Source: an uncultured Actinomycetes bacterium
Lineage (GTDB): Bacteria; Actinomycetota; UBA4738; JBBDTT01
DNA length: 64,000 nucleotides
Direction: 5' to 3'
Assembly (NCBI GenBank): GCA_963742735.1
Contig: CAVUMN010000001.1
Coordinates: 96,001-160,000 of the forward strand
Below the pieces are notes generated by a model. It was not told the DNA's origin, did not search any database, and saw only the letters and a program-made list of their open reading frames with translations. This document shows positions 38,467 through 42,907 of this stretch, piece by piece. The position numbers and the translations under genes are program-made. Position 1 is the first letter of the stretch. The number at the start of each line of letters is the position of its first letter.

Positions 38467-38919
38467 ATGGCGACGGATCCGTCCGAGAACCCCCCGCCCG
38501 AGGGCGCGACGGCCGAGCAGATGCTCGCCCTGGCCAACGGCCTCCTCCCCGGGACCCTGATGGAACGGTTGGAGCTGGAGTTCCTCGAGGTGGGGACGCG
38601 CCGGCTGCGAGCGAGGATCCCCGTGAAGGGCAACACCCAGCCGTACGGATTGCTCCACGGCGGCGCCACGGCGGCGCTGTGCGAGACGATCGCTTCGTTC
38701 GGCACGGTATACGTGGCCGGTGTCGACAAGGTGGCGACCGGGGTGGAGCTCAACGTGAACCACATCCGCGCGGTTCGCGAGGGCTTCATCACGGCGACCG
38801 CCGTGCCGCTGCACGTGGGGCGAACCACGGCGGTCTGGGACATGAAAGTTCACGACGATGACGGCCGTCTGGTGGCCGCGAGTCGCCTCACCCTCGCCAT
38901 CCGCGACTCGAAGGCGTAG
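38467..38919 (+). CDS. PaaI/MenI-like hotdog thioesterase
   Basis: NTQPYGLLHGGA..ET, GVELNVNH, LHVGRTT. Confidence 0.85.
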   Translation: MATDPSENPPPEGATAEQMLALANGLLPGTLMERLELEFLEVGTRRLRARIPVKGNTQPYGLLHGGATAALCETIASFGTVYVAGVDKVATGVELNVNHIRAVREGFITATAVPLHVGRTTAVWDMKVHDDDGRLVAASRLTLAIRDSKA

Positions 38920-39068
38920 TCGCGCACCCGTCTGACCTGCGGCGATGCGGATCGCGATCGTCAGTCAAAAGTTCCTTGTCACTCTGACGACATTTTTCGG
39001 GCTACGCATACCGCGAACTACCTGCGCGTATGCGCGAGAACCCTTGGGGCGCAACGGTTTCCAGCCGG

Positions 39069-39098
39069 TTGACTCGGGCGCCGCGCGCTTGCTACCTT
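39069..39098 (+). promoter_or_regulatory. SigA-type promoter of the putative ncRNA
   Basis: TTGACT-18 nt-TACCTT with an extended -10 TGn; predicted +1 falls at the first base of the RNA stem. Confidence 0.65.
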
Positions 39099-39103
39099 TC
39101 GCC

Positions 39104-39255
39104 CGGTCCCAAGCGGTCGCAGGGACGCGACGGGAGCCAGGAGGCCACGGGGGCCTGCCTCGGAGGGAACCGAAGGACCTCGGTCCGGAGGAACCCACCA
39201 GGGCGGCACTCGGAGCCACCGGGTTCCCGGAGGGCACCCGGGTCGCTTGGGACCG
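39104..39255 (+). ncRNA. Putative structured small RNA (long irregular rod; 6S/Ms1-like candidate)
   Basis: 15-bp closing stem CGGTCCCAAGCGGTC/GGTCGCTTGGGACCG, nested stems, own promoter, no credible ORF. Confidence 0.6.
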
Positions 39256-39261
39256 ACCTTT

Positions 39262-39345
39262 GAACGGGTCCGAGAAGCCGAGTAGATAACGCTCGCGTAT
39301 GGGGAAGGCGTGAGCGGCTCCAAAGGCTTCTCGGGCCCGTTCTTT
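39262..39345 (+). terminator. Large compound hairpin followed by TTT
   Basis: 18-bp arms 39262-39279 and 39325-39342 (one G.U pair) enclosing an inner stem CGCTCGCGT/GCGTGAGCG. Confidence 0.55.
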
Positions 39346-39402
39346 GGCATTCGCGGGCCCTCCGCCCGGCCTGCATCCGCACATACCCGGTAGGGTTCTC
39401 GC

Positions 39403-39885
39403 ATGGCACAGGAACCGAACCCTTCGTCCGACGCGCCGCAAGAGCCGCAGGCGATGATGCTCGACCCGCAGAAGCTGTTGCGCATCGCCGGCGTCACCCG
39501 GGAGGTGCTGGAGGAGGCCCGGCGGATCCGCCCGGAGCCCGGCGCGATCGATCACCTCCGGCGGGTCCACGCCAAGATCAGCGACGAGCTGAAGGGCGCA
39601 CTCCCCCCGGACCTGTGGAAGGAGCTCGACGAGCTGACGCCCGACATCAGGGACGGCACCCTCGAGGAGCTGGCCCTGGCGCACTCGGAGATCCTCGGCT
39701 GGCTCGAGGGACTGTTCCAGGGCACCCACCTGGCCATCCAGGCCCAGGCGGCACAGGCGGCGCAGATGCTCCGCCAGCAGATGGCCGACGCCGAGCGGGG
39801 AGAGCTCGGAGACGGGGAGCGCTCGCCCTCCGGAAGCGAGTCGGGCGGCGAGACGACCCCCGGCGGGACCAGCCAGTACCTCTAG
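39403..39885 (+). CDS. bpa: Bacterial proteasome activator (Bpa/PafE)
   Basis: PQKLLRIA..EVLEE, LGWLEGLFQG, C-terminal QYL proteasome-docking motif; TAGGGT 6 nt upstream. Confidence 0.85.
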   Translation: MAQEPNPSSDAPQEPQAMMLDPQKLLRIAGVTREVLEEARRIRPEPGAIDHLRRVHAKISDELKGALPPDLWKELDELTPDIRDGTLEELALAHSEILGWLEGLFQGTHLAIQAQAAQAAQMLRQQMADAERGELGDGERSPSGSESGGETTPGGTSQYL

Positions 39886-40234
39886 CCCTCGATCACCAGC
39901 ACGCCCTGCATCTTCCGATCCCGGTGATACGAGCAGTAGAAGTCGTACAGGCCCTCCTCGGGAAGCACCGAGGAGATCGGATCGATGACCAGCTCCTCGC
40001 CGACGGGCAGGTCCCGGCGGTACTCCGTACCGATGATCGTGACGTTGTGCCTGTTCCGCCCCACGTTCCGGAAGATCAGCGCCCGGTCCGGGTCGATCGG
40101 CAACGAGGGGTGCGCATCGTGGAAGTGGTAGTCGATGGCCGAGACGACATACGGGCCGGCGGACGACCCAGCCGGCCCCCCGTCGCCGCATGCGACGAGA
40201 CTCACCACCACCAGGCCGAGCACCAGAGCGCGTC

Positions 40235-40238
<4 letters not shown>
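39882..40238 (-). CDS. Cupredoxin-domain lipoprotein
   Basis: Lipobox LVAC; HNVT and [13 protein letters not shown] provide H/C/H/M ligands. Confidence 0.75.
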
Positions 40239-40977
<739 letters not shown>

Positions 40978-40981
<4 letters not shown>

Positions 40982-42039
40982 CCGGCCACCCCGACCAGGC
41001 CGCTCCGCAGGCGCTCCTCCACGCGGTTGACGAAATAGATCAACGGCAGCGTCACCACCAGGTAGGCCACCGCGGCGGCGGTGAAGAACGTCGCGTTGAA
41101 GGTGGACGAGTACCCCTGGCGTGCAAACGCGAAGATTTCGAATTGCGCCTGGGTGAGGCCGATGATCCCGATCAGGGACGTGTCCTTGATGAGGATCACA
41201 AACTCGTTCATGAGCGGAGGGATCACCCGGCGGAAGGCCTGCGGCACCACGGCGTAGCGCATCGACTGGATGTACGTCATCCCGAGCGATCGAGCCGCCT
41301 CGAGCTGTCCGCGCTCGACCGACTGGATGCCGGCGCGGAACACTTCCGAGGAGTACGCGCCCATGTTCAGCGCGAAGATGAGGGCGCCGGCCGCCAGAGG
41401 TGAGACCGAGATCCCGAGCCCGAAGATGAGCGCGGTGTAGCCGGCGATCAGCTGGAACAGGAGCGGCGTTCCCCTGAAGAAATTGATATACACGCGGGCG
41501 GGTGCCCGGACCGACCTCCGCTTGGAGATCACGAGCAGCGCCAGCACGAGCCCGATGGCGATCCCGCCTGCCTCCCCCAGGACCGCGAGCAGGATGGTGT
41601 TCTTCGCGCCGCGGATGAACGCTCCCCCGTACCCTTCCAGCTTCTCGAAGCTGAAGAAGTGGAACGTGAAGCGCTCAACCGTCTCCGCCCGGAACCACAA
41701 GAAGGCTGCGCCGAGCAGCACCGTCTGGATTCCCAACACGGCTCCCGCGATGGAGCGCTCACGGCTTGGCTTCGTGGGCATGCGCCGGTACAGGGCGAAC
41801 CCGCCGCCCACGGCCAGGAGGCCGGCGACCATCGAGCCGATCGCCGTGGCGGCGGCGGTGTCGGTCCGGAGCGCGGTGACGATCGACGTGAACGGCGTCC
41901 AGCCGTAGAAGGTGATGATCGCCGCGGGGCCGACCAGGATCCCGGCGATGGACGCCGCACCGACGGCAAACACCATCAGGGCGAGCGCGTAGAGCCGGCG
42001 ATCGGACTTCGCCGGCTCCACCGGTGGCGATTCGGTCAC
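40978..42039 (-). CDS. Polar amino acid ABC permease with extra N-terminal TM segments
   Basis: [34 protein letters not shown]. Confidence 0.88.
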
Positions 42040-42043
42040 GGTC

Positions 42044-42907
42044 TCAGGCGGAGGCCTGGAACTCCTCGGGAACCTCCTGGCCCGGGAAGTACTCCGCGAA
42101 GATCTCCTCGTAGGTCCCGTCGGCGATGATCTCGGCAAGGGCGACGTTCGCCGCCTGGATCAGCTCGGGATTCTCCGGCGAGAACGCGAACGCGTACTTC
42201 TCGTTCGTGTCGTAGGTTTCGACGATGGCCAGGCTCGGACGCTCCGCGATGATGTCCGCCGTGGACTGCTCGTCGTTCACGACCGCGGTGACCTGACCGG
42301 CTTCCAGGTCGGTGAAAGCCGCGGGCGCACCCGGGAAGGTCTTGATCTCCACGCCCGTCGGGGCGTGTTCCTTGGCATAGGTCGCGCCGGTCGTCCCGGC
42401 CTGGACGCCGATGATGTCCCCCTCGACGAGATCGTCGATCGATGCCAGGTCCGGGGTCTCCTCCGTGTTGACGGTCATCGCCGTCCGGGAGTTGAAGTAG
42501 AAGTCCGAGAAGTCCACGACCTCGTCGCGCTCCTTGCCATCCGCCCCCGTGGCGGTGACCGCCGCAGCGACCATGTCGAACTGACTTCCGCCGGCGACGG
42601 CCGTGAAGATCGTCTCGAAGTTCGCCGTCACCCACTCGACCTCGAGGTCCAGGCGGCTGGCGACCTCCTCGGTCAGATCGACGTCGAAACCGACCTCGTC
42701 TCCGTCGACGACGGATTCGAACGGTGGGTAGTCGAGGCAGGACCCGACCTTCAGCACGCCCTCCTCGATCGTCGTGAACTCGGGGATCTCCGCCCCGGGC
42801 GGACTTGTGGTGCCCCCGGTTCCGGTCGGCGTGTCTTCCCCGCACGCCGCGCCGAGCAACGCGAACACGGCCAATATCGAGACCAGCGCCAAGCGTCTAC
42901 GCCTCAT
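42044..42907 (-). CDS. Polar amino acid ABC substrate-binding lipoprotein
   Basis: Lipobox GAAC, YPPFE, GFDVDL, VDFSDFY, GVQAGTTG. Confidence 0.9.
   Translation of the reverse strand: MRRRRLALVSILAVFALLGAACGEDTPTGTGGTTSPPGAEIPEFTTIEEGVLKVGSCLDYPPFESVVDGDEVGFDVDLTEEVASRLDLEVEWVTANFETIFTAVAGGSQFDMVAAAVTATGADGKERDEVVDFSDFYFNSRTAMTVNTEETPDLASIDDLVEGDIIGVQAGTTGATYAKEHAPTGVEIKTFPGAPAAFTDLEAGQVTAVVNDEQSTADIIAERPSLAIVETYDTNEKYAFAFSPENPELIQAANVALAEIIADGTYEEIFAEYFPGQEVPEEFQASA

What the first reader, a model, noticed from the sequence alone, without database searches (positions are those of the whole stretch)
39069..39345. Promoter-driven rod-shaped ncRNA candidate upstream of bpa
Seen: a 483-bp gap with TTGACT-18-TACCTT whose predicted +1 coincides with a 15-bp closing stem (39104-39118 with 39241-39255). 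The inside folds by eye as one irregular rod (CGGGAGCC/GGTTCCCG, GGAGGC/GCCACC, CGGGGGCC/GGCACTCG, GGAGGG/CCCACC, capped by GGAC-CTCG-GTCC). G.U pairs favour the + strand. bpa has its own -10 directly before its ATG, so this need not be its leader. Inference: an independent 150-240 nt RNA. The motif order GGGAGCC..ACCCACC..CGGGTTC..GGCAC..GGGAC recalls Firmicutes 6S RNAs from memory, but a large central bubble is not obvious, so it may be a new RNA-polymerase-binding or unrelated class.
Basis: partly seen in the sequence, partly recalled or inferred. Interest (0 to 1): 0.72.

Follow-up and report, generated by a model that had tools for sequence, protein, structure and literature searches.

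The report
New conserved actinobacterial small RNA gene
The gap upstream of bpa holds a real, separately transcribed, highly folded small RNA gene of a family absent from the RNA family database, found in nearly every genome searched in this uncultured soil actinobacterial group, and it is not a 6S RNA.

Summary
Window 39104-39345 (+) is a ~242-nt structured RNA gene with its own promoter (TTGACT-18-TACCTT). It is single-copy in this genome. A model of its 3' half matches 147 of 151 genomes of its class.

It has two domains:
- A 5' rod (39104-39255) closed by a conserved, covarying 12-15-bp stem. The interior varies in sequence and length, so the domain spans 52-209 nt.
- A near-invariant 3' hairpin (39262-39342) with an internal loop GAGUAGAUAA/GCUCCAAA and an apical loop AUGGGGAAG. 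97.9% of cells are paired and 15 of 23 pairs show compensatory changes.

The hairpin, not the rod, defines the family. It recurs in a shorter paralog upstream of a DUF4193 gene, and in 29 of 140 other Actinomycetota genomes, sometimes as the whole RNA.

Rfam gives no match. There is no 6S-like bubble, no Ms1 synteny, and relatives coexist with canonical 6S. Short contigs from four soil metatranscriptome studies cover only this RNA.

Function is unknown. My best guess is a protein-binding RNA, possibly linked to RNA polymerase.

Two earlier scan notes describe unannotated actinobacterial sRNAs on other DNA. Identity with this family was not checked.

The parts
38976..38985 (+). Distal upstream box TTGTCACTCT, followed by a T-tract at 38992-38999
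   Evidence: TTTGTCACTCT-like box seen by eye in most of the 25 aligned promoters printed; position in this window read. Function unknown.
39018..39026 (+). Upstream box CTACCTGCG (ACCTGC at 39020-39025)
   Evidence: ACCTG lies 49 or 48 nt before the -35 start in 101 of 119 non-redundant promoters. Also seen by eye in outgroup loci L180, L183, L186 and L194.
39044..39054 (+). Upstream box TTGGGGCGCAA (consensus tTGc.gcgCAa)
   Evidence: Consensus of 119 promoters aligned on the -35.
39069..39074 (+). -35 hexamer TTGACT
   Evidence: TTGAC. is present in 142 of 146 homologous loci. The spacer is 17 nt in 95 and 18 nt in 24 of 119 non-redundant promoters.
39093..39098 (+). -10 hexamer TACCTT (TANNNT type)
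   Evidence: Not called by the TATAAT-based scan.
39104..39345 (+). The whole predicted RNA, about 242 nt. The start is inferred from the -10. The end is inferred from the hairpin plus the U-run.
   Evidence: Contigs in RNA libraries span 39112-39337 and no more. The ends are not mapped experimentally.
39104..39255 (+). 5' domain: conserved closing stem (39104-39118 with 39241-39255) around a variable rod
   Evidence: for the stem. In 37 sampled homologs the interior has median z = -2.59, and 28 of 37 fold as a single hairpin. The domain is 52-209 nt long.
39256..39261 (+). Linker ACCTTT between the two domains
   Evidence: Alignments A1/A2. It is partly conserved; the T and G columns (positions 19 and 21 of the first A2 sequence, about window 39260 and 39262) are nearly invariant.
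39262..39342 (+). 3' domain: hairpin P1 (39262-39279 with 39325-39342) and P2 (39290-39298 with 39308-39316). This is the family-defining module. P1 probably also serves as the terminator stem.
   Evidence: On 96 sequences, 97.9% of cells are paired, 15 of 23 pairs have changes on both sides, and 0 of 500 shuffles reach this. Slid controls give 29-45%. Model R1 scores 113 bits here.
39280..39289 (+). Internal loop, 5' side: GAGTAGATAA
   Evidence: Invariant or nearly invariant columns in A2. For loci L031 onward this is partly by construction, because they were found with this pattern. 27 of the 30 BLAST-found loci also carry it.
39299..39307 (+). Apical loop ATGGGGAAG (G-rich)
   Evidence: Invariant GGGGAAGG in A2. 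Also present in out-of-class relatives of families f14, f18 and f40.
39317..39324 (+). Internal loop, 3' side: GCTCCAAA
   Evidence: CCAAAGG is also kept in the paralog and in outgroups.
39343..39345 (+). Short T-run after P1 (TTT within GTTCTTTGG)
   Evidence: Terminator-like site reported at 39325-39337 plus tail. The 3' flanks of homologs are T-rich, and a long U-run follows the minimal forms.

Best explanation
Window 39104-39345 (+) encodes a stand-alone, highly structured small RNA of about 242 nt. It is transcribed from its own conserved housekeeping-type promoter and ends at its own 3' hairpin.

Shown:
- the gene and its promoter conservation
- the two-domain fold with covariation
- single copy per genome
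- near-universal presence in the class
- a paralog and out-of-class relatives that share only the 3' hairpin

Inferred:
- The working part is the 3' hairpin. Its invariant, two-sided internal loop (GAGUAGAYAA/GCUCCAAA) forms a non-Watson-Crick module that is bound by a conserved protein.
- The abundant stand-alone RNA therefore acts as a ribonucleoprotein scaffold or decoy.
- The 5' rod is a variable expansion that adds stability or extra contacts.

The partner I think most likely is RNA polymerase or a factor attached to it. This is a guess of about 0.25 within the 0.45 overall. It rests on three things:
- The window's order shows no canonical 6S RNA and no room for an Ms1 gene next to its HAD-IB hydrolase genes.
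- In other Actinomycetota, abundant structured sRNAs have turned out to bind RNA polymerase.
- The paralogous hairpin sits just upstream of the DUF4193 gene, whose mycobacterial homolog is predicted to bind RNA polymerase.
For: Gene and promoter.

Fold.

Copy number and spread:
- single copy
- BLAST match in 39 of 41 relatives
- model R1 match in 147 of 151 genomes of the class
- R1 match in 29 of 140 genomes of other classes

The hairpin is the shared core:
- The paralog in most genomes of the order keeps P1, the internal loop and P2, but has a short cap.
- The minimal forms in family f18 are only promoter, hairpin and U-tail, about 85-98 nt.
- The motif occurs only at these two places in the 3.08-Mb genome.

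Expression hint: contigs of 85-219 nt from 4 soil RNA libraries of 4 studies lie only within 39112-39337. One 186-nt contig differs from the window at 8 letters.

RNA polymerase lead:
- RF00013 (6S) was not found in 0 of 11 genomes of the order.
- The genome's two HAD-IB genes are tightly packed among neighbours, with no long intergenic gap.
- The paralog lies upstream of DUF4193 in G000 and in 19 of 19 further loci.
- DUF4193 (ML1026/Rv2699c) is predicted to bind RNA polymerase (bioRxiv 10.64898/2026.07.15.738315, passages read).
- Ms1, CoRP and the ~85-nt scr0792 bind RNA polymerase in other Actinomycetota (PMC9130861 and PMC11077062, passages read).
Against: - No protein partner was identified, and none can be with these tools. 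Protein binding is inferred only from the conservation pattern.
- The DUF4193 link is synteny alone and is not general. DUF4193 is absent from 3 of 3 genomes of families f31 and f23 that carry the hairpin RNA. In G160 and G285 it lies on other contigs than the RNA.
- 13 of the 29 out-of-class carriers also have a 6S match at E <= 0.001, 10 of them above Rfam's cut-off. The RNA is therefore not simply a 6S replacement.
- The invariant G-rich apical loop would suit a base-pairing seed equally well.
- The RNA-library contigs show neither strand nor ends, and DNA carry-over cannot be excluded.
- The TATAAT-based scan did not call the promoter.
Confidence: 0.45

Rival explanations
1. Base-pairing regulator. 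The invariant, exposed G-rich apical loop (AUGGGGAAGG) is a seed that pairs with C/U-rich stretches of target mRNAs. The rest of the hairpin only presents the loop and terminates transcription.
For: - The 9-nt apical loop is invariant within the order and keeps GGGGAAGG in out-of-class relatives f14, f18 and f40.
- The RNA gene lies next to a polar-amino-acid-type ABC transporter ATPase gene in three lineages. This resembles transporter-regulating sRNAs such as GcvB, an analogy recalled from memory.
Against: - The paralog and the f31/f23 relatives lack this loop but keep the two-sided internal loop, so the family-defining feature is not a single-stranded seed.
- The exact complement CCTTCCCC is not enriched in the window: 3 found against 3.45 expected, and one of the 3 is the loop itself.
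- There is no excess complementarity in 20 DUF4193 leaders: mean -11.87 against -11.86 kcal/mol, median z = 0.29.
- No target was identified.
Confidence: 0.25
2. Ligand- or signal-sensing element. The hairpin is an aptamer-like or attenuator module that controls read-through. This would be its role in the paralog upstream of DUF4193. The copy in the window would be an orphan that works in trans or as a decoy.
For: - In the paralog, a promoter, a short 5' hairpin, the motif hairpin and a pyrimidine-rich tail precede the DUF4193 gene on the same strand in 20 of 20 loci examined. This is the layout of a leader.
- Invariant internal-loop letters on both strands are typical of binding pockets.
Against: - The window's copy has no constant downstream gene. 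bpa follows in 7 of 30 loci; otherwise a convergent ABC ATPase gene follows.
- No alternative anti-terminator pairing was found.
- No Rfam riboswitch matched.
Confidence: 0.12
3. One reading: a 6S- or Ms1-type RNA whose rod mimics open promoter DNA and sequesters RNA polymerase.
For: - The size (~242 nt), the rod shape, the strong promoter and the likely abundance fit.
- The order shows no RF00013 match (0 of 11 genomes), and the window's genome has no room for Ms1 at its HAD-IB loci.
Against: - No 6S model match even at E <= 10.
- No central bubble: the largest interior loop has a median of 8 nt in total, and >= 6 nt on both sides in only 10 of 113 homologs.
- Rod length and branching are not conserved, and the rod is absent in f18.
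- Relatives coexist with canonical 6S in 13 genomes.
- Ms1 synteny is not met.
Confidence: 0.08
4. Not an RNA gene in its own right: a bpa leader, a dispersed repeat (MITE/REP) or a chance hairpin.
For: It lies 58 nt before bpa in this window.
Against: - Single copy.
- Syntenic and conserved across a class.
- bpa is absent downstream in 23 of 30 loci.
- Covariation is present.
- bpa has its own TAGGGT 7 nt before the ATG.
Confidence: 0.02

Closest known systems
Ms1 RNA (M. smegmatis Ms1, M. tuberculosis MTS2823, S. coelicolor scr3559)
   Same: An actinobacterial, abundant, highly structured sRNA of ~230-300 nt with its own promoter and extra hairpins at the ends. Ms1 occurs where 6S is not detected (PMC9130861, passages read).
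   Different: - Ms1 genes sit next to a HAD-IB hydrolase gene. Here both HAD-IB genes are tightly flanked, and the RNA lies between a thioesterase gene and bpa or an ABC ATPase gene.
- Ms1 is described with a central bubble; none is found here.
- Sequence likeness could not be tested. Ms1 sequences are in supplements, which were closed, and no Rfam family matched.
- Model R1 found nothing in 111 of the 140 out-of-class genomes searched.
6S RNA (Rfam RF00013)
   Same: A rod-like, abundant small RNA with a closing stem and its own promoter.
   Different: No model match, no central bubble, a variable rod, and a conserved 3' hairpin module that 6S lacks. Canonical 6S coexists with relatives of this RNA in 13 genomes.
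CoRP RNA and scr0792 (RNA-polymerase-bound RNAs of Corynebacterium and Streptomyces)
   Same: Lineage-specific structured RNAs of Actinomycetota without Rfam families. scr0792 is ~85 nt, like the minimal hairpin-only forms seen here in family f18 (PMC11077062, passages read).
   Different: - CoRP is 516 nt and lies between tRNA genes.
- No sequence of either was available for comparison.
- Binding to RNA polymerase is shown for them and untested here.
Paired homologous sRNAs that share a protein-binding scaffold (GlmY/GlmZ, CsrB/CsrC, 6S-1/6S-2); analogy recalled from memory
   Same: Two paralogous RNAs per genome share a structured module, and only one carries an extra exposed loop.
   Different: No homology, and no partner protein known. 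One of the two copies here looks like an mRNA leader (upstream of DUF4193).

Membership tests
6S RNA (RF00013) | Match to the family covariance model | tested here: not met
   No hit at the gathering score in the window. No 6S hit at E <= 10 in 38850-39450. No hit at E <= 0.001 in the whole genome. The control genomes rang.
6S RNA (RF00013) | Large central bubble flanked by closing and terminal stems (open-promoter mimic) | tested here: not met
   With lonely pairs disallowed, the largest interior loop of the 5' domain has a median of 8 nt in total and a maximum of 18. Only 10 of 113 homologs have >= 6 nt on both sides.
6S RNA (RF00013) | Binds the sigma-A/sigma-70 holoenzyme and templates product RNA | not testable with these tools
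   Needs RIP-seq or in vitro transcription.
Ms1 RNA | Conserved position next to a HAD-IB hydrolase gene (SCO3558/MSMEG_6173 type) | tested here: not met
   The HAD-IB genes are at G000:C4:927000 and C4:620417, both without a long flanking gap. The RNA lies on C1 between a 4HBT thioesterase gene and bpa.
Ms1 RNA | Sequence or structure likeness to known Ms1 RNAs | not tested
   No Ms1 sequence was on hand because the supplements were closed, and no Rfam model matched. Indirect evidence only: R1 found nothing in 111 of 140 out-of-class genomes.
Ms1 RNA | [quoted passage not shown] | not testable with these tools
   Needs immunoprecipitation or gradient sedimentation.
Any Rfam 15 family | Match to a curated covariance model | tested here: not met
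   Nothing relevant for the window, for 7 paralog loci, for 18 out-of-class loci or for the 2 HAD-IB loci.
Independent bacterial sRNA gene (promoter + structured RNA + terminator hairpin) | Own conserved promoter, conserved structure with covariation, and no fixed downstream gene | tested here: met
   Promoter in 142 of 146 loci. Covariation. bpa downstream in only 7 of 30 loci.
Independent bacterial sRNA gene (promoter + structured RNA + terminator hairpin) | A discrete transcript with mapped ends | tested here: inconclusive
   Contigs from 4 RNA libraries cover only 39112-39337. Contigs show neither strand, ends nor level.

The most novel reading that the evidence does not exclude
Deep-branching Actinomycetota have a previously undescribed two-RNA circuit built on one hairpin module. 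The first RNA is an abundant stand-alone sRNA, the one in this window. The second is a paralogous hairpin in the leader of the essential DUF4193 gene, whose product is predicted to bind RNA polymerase. Both are recognised by the same factor, RNA polymerase or a subunit-like protein. The sRNA would then titrate that factor and tune the transcription machinery. In lineages that lack detectable 6S and Ms1, it would fill their role by a different structural principle.
Probability: 0.15. Interest if true: 0.85.

Novelty: new variant of a known kind. Interest (0 to 1): 0.6.

Why it matters
This is a well-supported RNA family with no entry in Rfam 15. It has a strong conserved promoter and clear covariation. 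It is present in almost every genome searched of an uncultured soil class, and in several other actinobacterial lineages. It also appears in soil metatranscriptome assemblies.

Such near-universal, single-copy structured RNAs are usually parts of core machinery. The known examples are 6S, SRP RNA, RNase P RNA, tmRNA and Ms1.

The shared hairpin, which also stands upstream of the essential DUF4193 gene, gives a concrete handle for experiments. A ~85-nt RNA could be used as bait to find the partner. That would test whether these bacteria regulate RNA polymerase with a new kind of RNA.

Tried and rejected
- Rfam at gathering and at E <= 10 gave only chance-level hits: HOXA11-AS1_3, ASdes and MIR6154.
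- SRP RNA was ruled out. A canonical one lies elsewhere, at G000:C4:496058.
- My recollection that SCO3558, the Ms1 neighbour, is bpa was wrong. It is a HAD hydrolase.
- The ORF at 40190-41038 (+) that seemed to be a conserved neighbour is the antisense frame of an ABC ATPase gene.
It named no genus and is not a full census.
- Pairing of the apical loop with the DUF4193 leaders is not enriched.
- The exact loop complement is at chance level in the window.
- I looked for mimicry of an rRNA site. AGTAGANAACG occurs only at the two RNA genes in the genome. The assembly is 88.9% complete, so rRNA operons may be missing.
- I considered DUF4193 as an obligate partner. Three carrier genomes lack it, and in two others it is unlinked.
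- A local 5' hairpin (CGGUCCC with GGGACCG) that competes with the closing stem was seen by eye. It is not compensated in L007 and was not pursued.
- A possible loop-linker pseudoknot (AAGG with CCUU) is not conserved in the linker.
- The earlier-findings look-up by sequence found nothing.
- The parts of the window around the RNA that have no RNA-contig cover are not counted as evidence of silence.

Full report
**What is in the window.** The gap 38920-39402 lies between a hotdog-fold thioesterase gene (38467-38919, PF03061) and bpa (39403-39885, PF10759). Upstream of the thioesterase gene is gltB. Downstream of bpa, on the other strand, lie a cupredoxin-like ORF and an ABC transporter ATPase and permease.
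- TTGACT at 39069-39074
- an 18-nt spacer
- TACCTT at 39093-39098
- a 15-bp closing stem, 39104-39118 with 39241-39255

The stretch 39100-39260 folds into one irregular rod. The + strand gives -100.8 kcal/mol with z = -4.94, and 0 of 200 shuffles fold as well. The - strand gives -91.0 with z = -3.18. The generic sigma-70 scan called no promoter. TACCTT matches only three letters of TATAAT. It does fit TANNNT, which I recall as the actinobacterial -10 form.

**It is not a repeat and not a known RNA.** The 301-nt stretch occurs once in the 3.08-Mb, 88.9%-complete assembly. Rfam 15 gave only a tRNA elsewhere in the window at gathering scores. In the gap it gave three chance-level hits at E <= 10. 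The genome has a normal SRP RNA elsewhere and no 6S (RF00013) match.

**Conservation.**
- BLAST found the region in 39 of 41 related genomes. The best-kept part is not the rod. It is the ~100 nt after it, window 39238-39345, at 81-89% identity across eight families.
All are unnamed MAGs, mostly titled 'Actinomycetota bacterium'.
- Of 146 core-bearing loci, 142 have TTGAC.-N16-19-TA...T 109-265 nt upstream. The other four are cut by contig ends. The spacer is 17 nt in 95 and 18 nt in 24 of 119 non-redundant promoters.
- The promoter has conserved upstream boxes: ACCTGC at 48-49 nt before the -35 in 101 of 119, tTGc.gcgCAa at about -27, and a TTTGTCACTCT-like box at about -95 seen by eye in the printed rows.
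- bpa follows the RNA in only 7 of 30 loci. In most others the next gene is the convergent ABC ATPase gene. The thioesterase gene lies upstream in 20 of 30. The RNA is therefore its own transcription unit, not the bpa leader.

**Anatomy**.

*The 5' domain (39104-39255).* It is closed by a sequence-conserved stem, found in 113 of 114 non-redundant homologs.
- 91.8% of its cells are paired, against 28-50% when the 3' strand is slid.
- One position switches among A-U (41), G-C (36), G-U (31) and C-G (4).
- Frequent G.U pairs would be A.C on the other strand, which fixes the + strand.
- The interior varies in sequence and length, so the domain spans 52-209 nt with a median of 141.
- The interior is usually a rod. 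In 37 sampled homologs the median z was -2.59. 27 had z < -2, and 28 folded as a single hairpin.
- It has no 6S-like bubble. The largest interior loop has a median of 8 nt in total, and only 10 of 113 have >= 6 nt on both sides.

*The 3' domain (39262-39342).* It is a long hairpin built from these parts:
- P1 (14 consensus pairs, 18 in the window's copy)
- internal loop GAGUAGAYAA / GCUCCAAA
- P2 (9 bp)
- apical loop AUGGGGAAG

On 96 sequences, 97.9% of cells pair and 15 of 23 pairs have changes on both sides. 0 of 500 shuffles reach this, and slid controls give 29-45%. The invariance of the core letters is partly by construction for loci found with the pattern. However, 27 of the 30 BLAST-found loci carry it too. 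A short U-run follows P1.

**The hairpin defines a wider family.** A covariance model of the 3' domain (R1) matched 147 of 151 genomes of the class. All of these are of one order. The four misses are 79-90% complete. Most genomes gave two matches.

The second match is a paralog.
- It has its own TTGACA promoter and a small 5' hairpin.
- It keeps the same P1, internal loop and P2, but has a short C-rich cap instead of the G-rich loop.
- In the window's genome it lies at C3:862051-862146 (-), scoring 40.4 bits.
- It lies directly upstream, on the same strand, of a DUF4193 gene followed by lnt.
- DUF4193 lies downstream in 19 of 19 further paralog loci.

Outside the class, R1 matched 29 of 140 genomes: family f14 10/10, f18 7/10, f31 5/5, f9 4/10. 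Three forms stand out:
- In f18 the RNA is only promoter, hairpin and U-tail, about 85-98 nt.
- In f14 the 5' domain is a bare stem-loop.
- In f9 a long branched 5' domain with the same GUCCCAAGC closing stem precedes a diverged hairpin, again upstream of DUF4193 and lnt.

None of these loci matches any Rfam family. In the window's genome the motif occurs only at the two RNA genes.

**Expression.** An index search found no run holding half or more of the stretch's sampled words. 21 RNA runs held a small share of them, which fits relatives' conserved cores. I laid four soil RNA libraries from four studies on the stretch at 80% likeness. They gave 14 short contigs of 85-219 nt, all within 39112-39337. 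One is a 186-nt contig spanning 39112-39297 with 8 differences. Nothing covered the flanks. Contigs show neither strand, ends nor level, and DNA carry-over cannot be excluded. This is a hint of an abundant RNA, not proof.

**6S and Ms1.** The 6S reading fails on each testable feature.
- There is no model match and no bubble.
- The rod is variable or absent.
- 13 of the 29 out-of-class carriers have a 6S match elsewhere at E <= 0.001, and 10 of them are above Rfam's cut-off.
- None of the 11 genomes of the window's order had a 6S match.

Ms1 genes lie beside a HAD-IB hydrolase gene (PMC9130861, passages read). Here both HAD-IB genes are tightly packed, with no room for an RNA, and the RNA is elsewhere. 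Ms1 sequences are in supplements that were closed, so direct likeness is untested.

**What it may do.** The family-defining feature is a two-sided invariant internal loop inside a covarying helix. It is shared by a stand-alone RNA and by a leader-like paralog. That pattern suggests a protein-binding (or ligand-binding) module rather than a seed, so I favour a ribonucleoprotein scaffold or decoy (0.45).

RNA polymerase or an attached factor is the leading candidate partner (about 0.25), for these reasons:
- Ms1, CoRP and the ~85-nt scr0792 are RNA-polymerase-bound RNAs of other Actinomycetota (PMC11077062, passages read).
- DUF4193 (ML1026/Rv2699c) is reported as essential and is predicted by AlphaFold3 to bind RNA polymerase (bioRxiv 10.64898/2026.07.15.738315, passages read).
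- Rv2699c appears in a table of strongly induced transcripts (16.6 against 173.0, 10.4-fold) in PMC3898074. I read only that table passage.

These links are circumstantial. DUF4193 is missing from three carrier genomes and is unlinked in two others.

The base-pairing rival (0.25) rests on the invariant G-rich loop. I found no enriched complement in the window or in 20 DUF4193 leaders.

**Prior notes and print.** The scan's sequence index held no look-alike. Two earlier notes describe unannotated structured sRNA families in soil actinobacteria and in Acidimicrobiia. I could not check whether they are this family. My literature searches were:
- 6S/Streptomyces/SCO3558
- Ms1/RNA polymerase core
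- DUF4193
- Rv2699c

None turned up a description of this RNA. They were not aimed at its sequence, so this is weak evidence that it is not in print.

**Unpublished genomes.**
- The counts include genomes flagged unpublished: G006, G014, G027, G030, G031, G039, G055, G101, G108, G124, G128, G141, G155 and G199.
- Alignments A1/A2 include L005, L006, L012, L013 and L015, and A2 also L019, from such genomes.
- The f9 example L196 is from G199. L188, from G253, shows the same features.
- No conclusion depends on these genomes alone.

Noticed in passing
G000:C3:862051-862146 (-), locus L172 1501-1596; outside the window: A paralogous small RNA or leader with the same hairpin module but a short C-rich cap. 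It has its own TTGACA-N17-TACAGT promoter. It lies directly upstream of a DUF4193 gene and lnt. DUF4193 is downstream in 19 of 19 other paralog loci of the order.
   Followed up: partly
window 38976-39054: About 100 nt upstream of the -35 is conserved in blocks: a TTTGTCACTCT-like box, a T-tract, CTACCTGCG at -49, and tTGc.gcgCAa at -27. The ACCTGC and TTGC..CAA boxes recur before relatives in other families (L180, L183, L186, L194). This looks like binding sites for an unknown regulator.
   Followed up: partly
window 39390-39402: bpa has TAGGGT ending 7 nt before its ATG, and the closest relative L002 has the same. This suggests a leaderless bpa transcript that is independent of the RNA.
   Followed up: no
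window 40190-41038 (+) versus 40235-40981 (-): A 282-codon open frame with no family match is the antisense frame of an ABC transporter ATPase gene (PF00005). It gives strong tblastn hits in relatives only because the opposite strand is conserved. This is a trap for ORF-based annotation in high-GC DNA.
   Followed up: yes
window 40235-42138 (-) and loci L181, L183, L186, L195, L197: The RNA gene neighbours a homologous ABC ATPase gene (55-64% identity) in the window's order, in family f14 and at one f18 locus. The two are usually convergent. This could be old linkage or a functional tie to amino-acid transport.
   Followed up: partly
phylum sample: Canonical 6S (RF00013) was found in 56 of 151 Actinomycetota genomes sampled, and in all sampled genomes of several families. 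It was found in none of the 11 genomes of the window's order, nor in families f9 (0/10) and f18 (0/10).
   Followed up: partly
window 39104-39128: The 5' end CGGUCCC can pair either with the distant GGGACCG (the closing stem) or with a nearby GGGAC(G) about 12 nt downstream. This is a possible co-transcriptional alternative hairpin. It is not compensated in L007.
   Followed up: no
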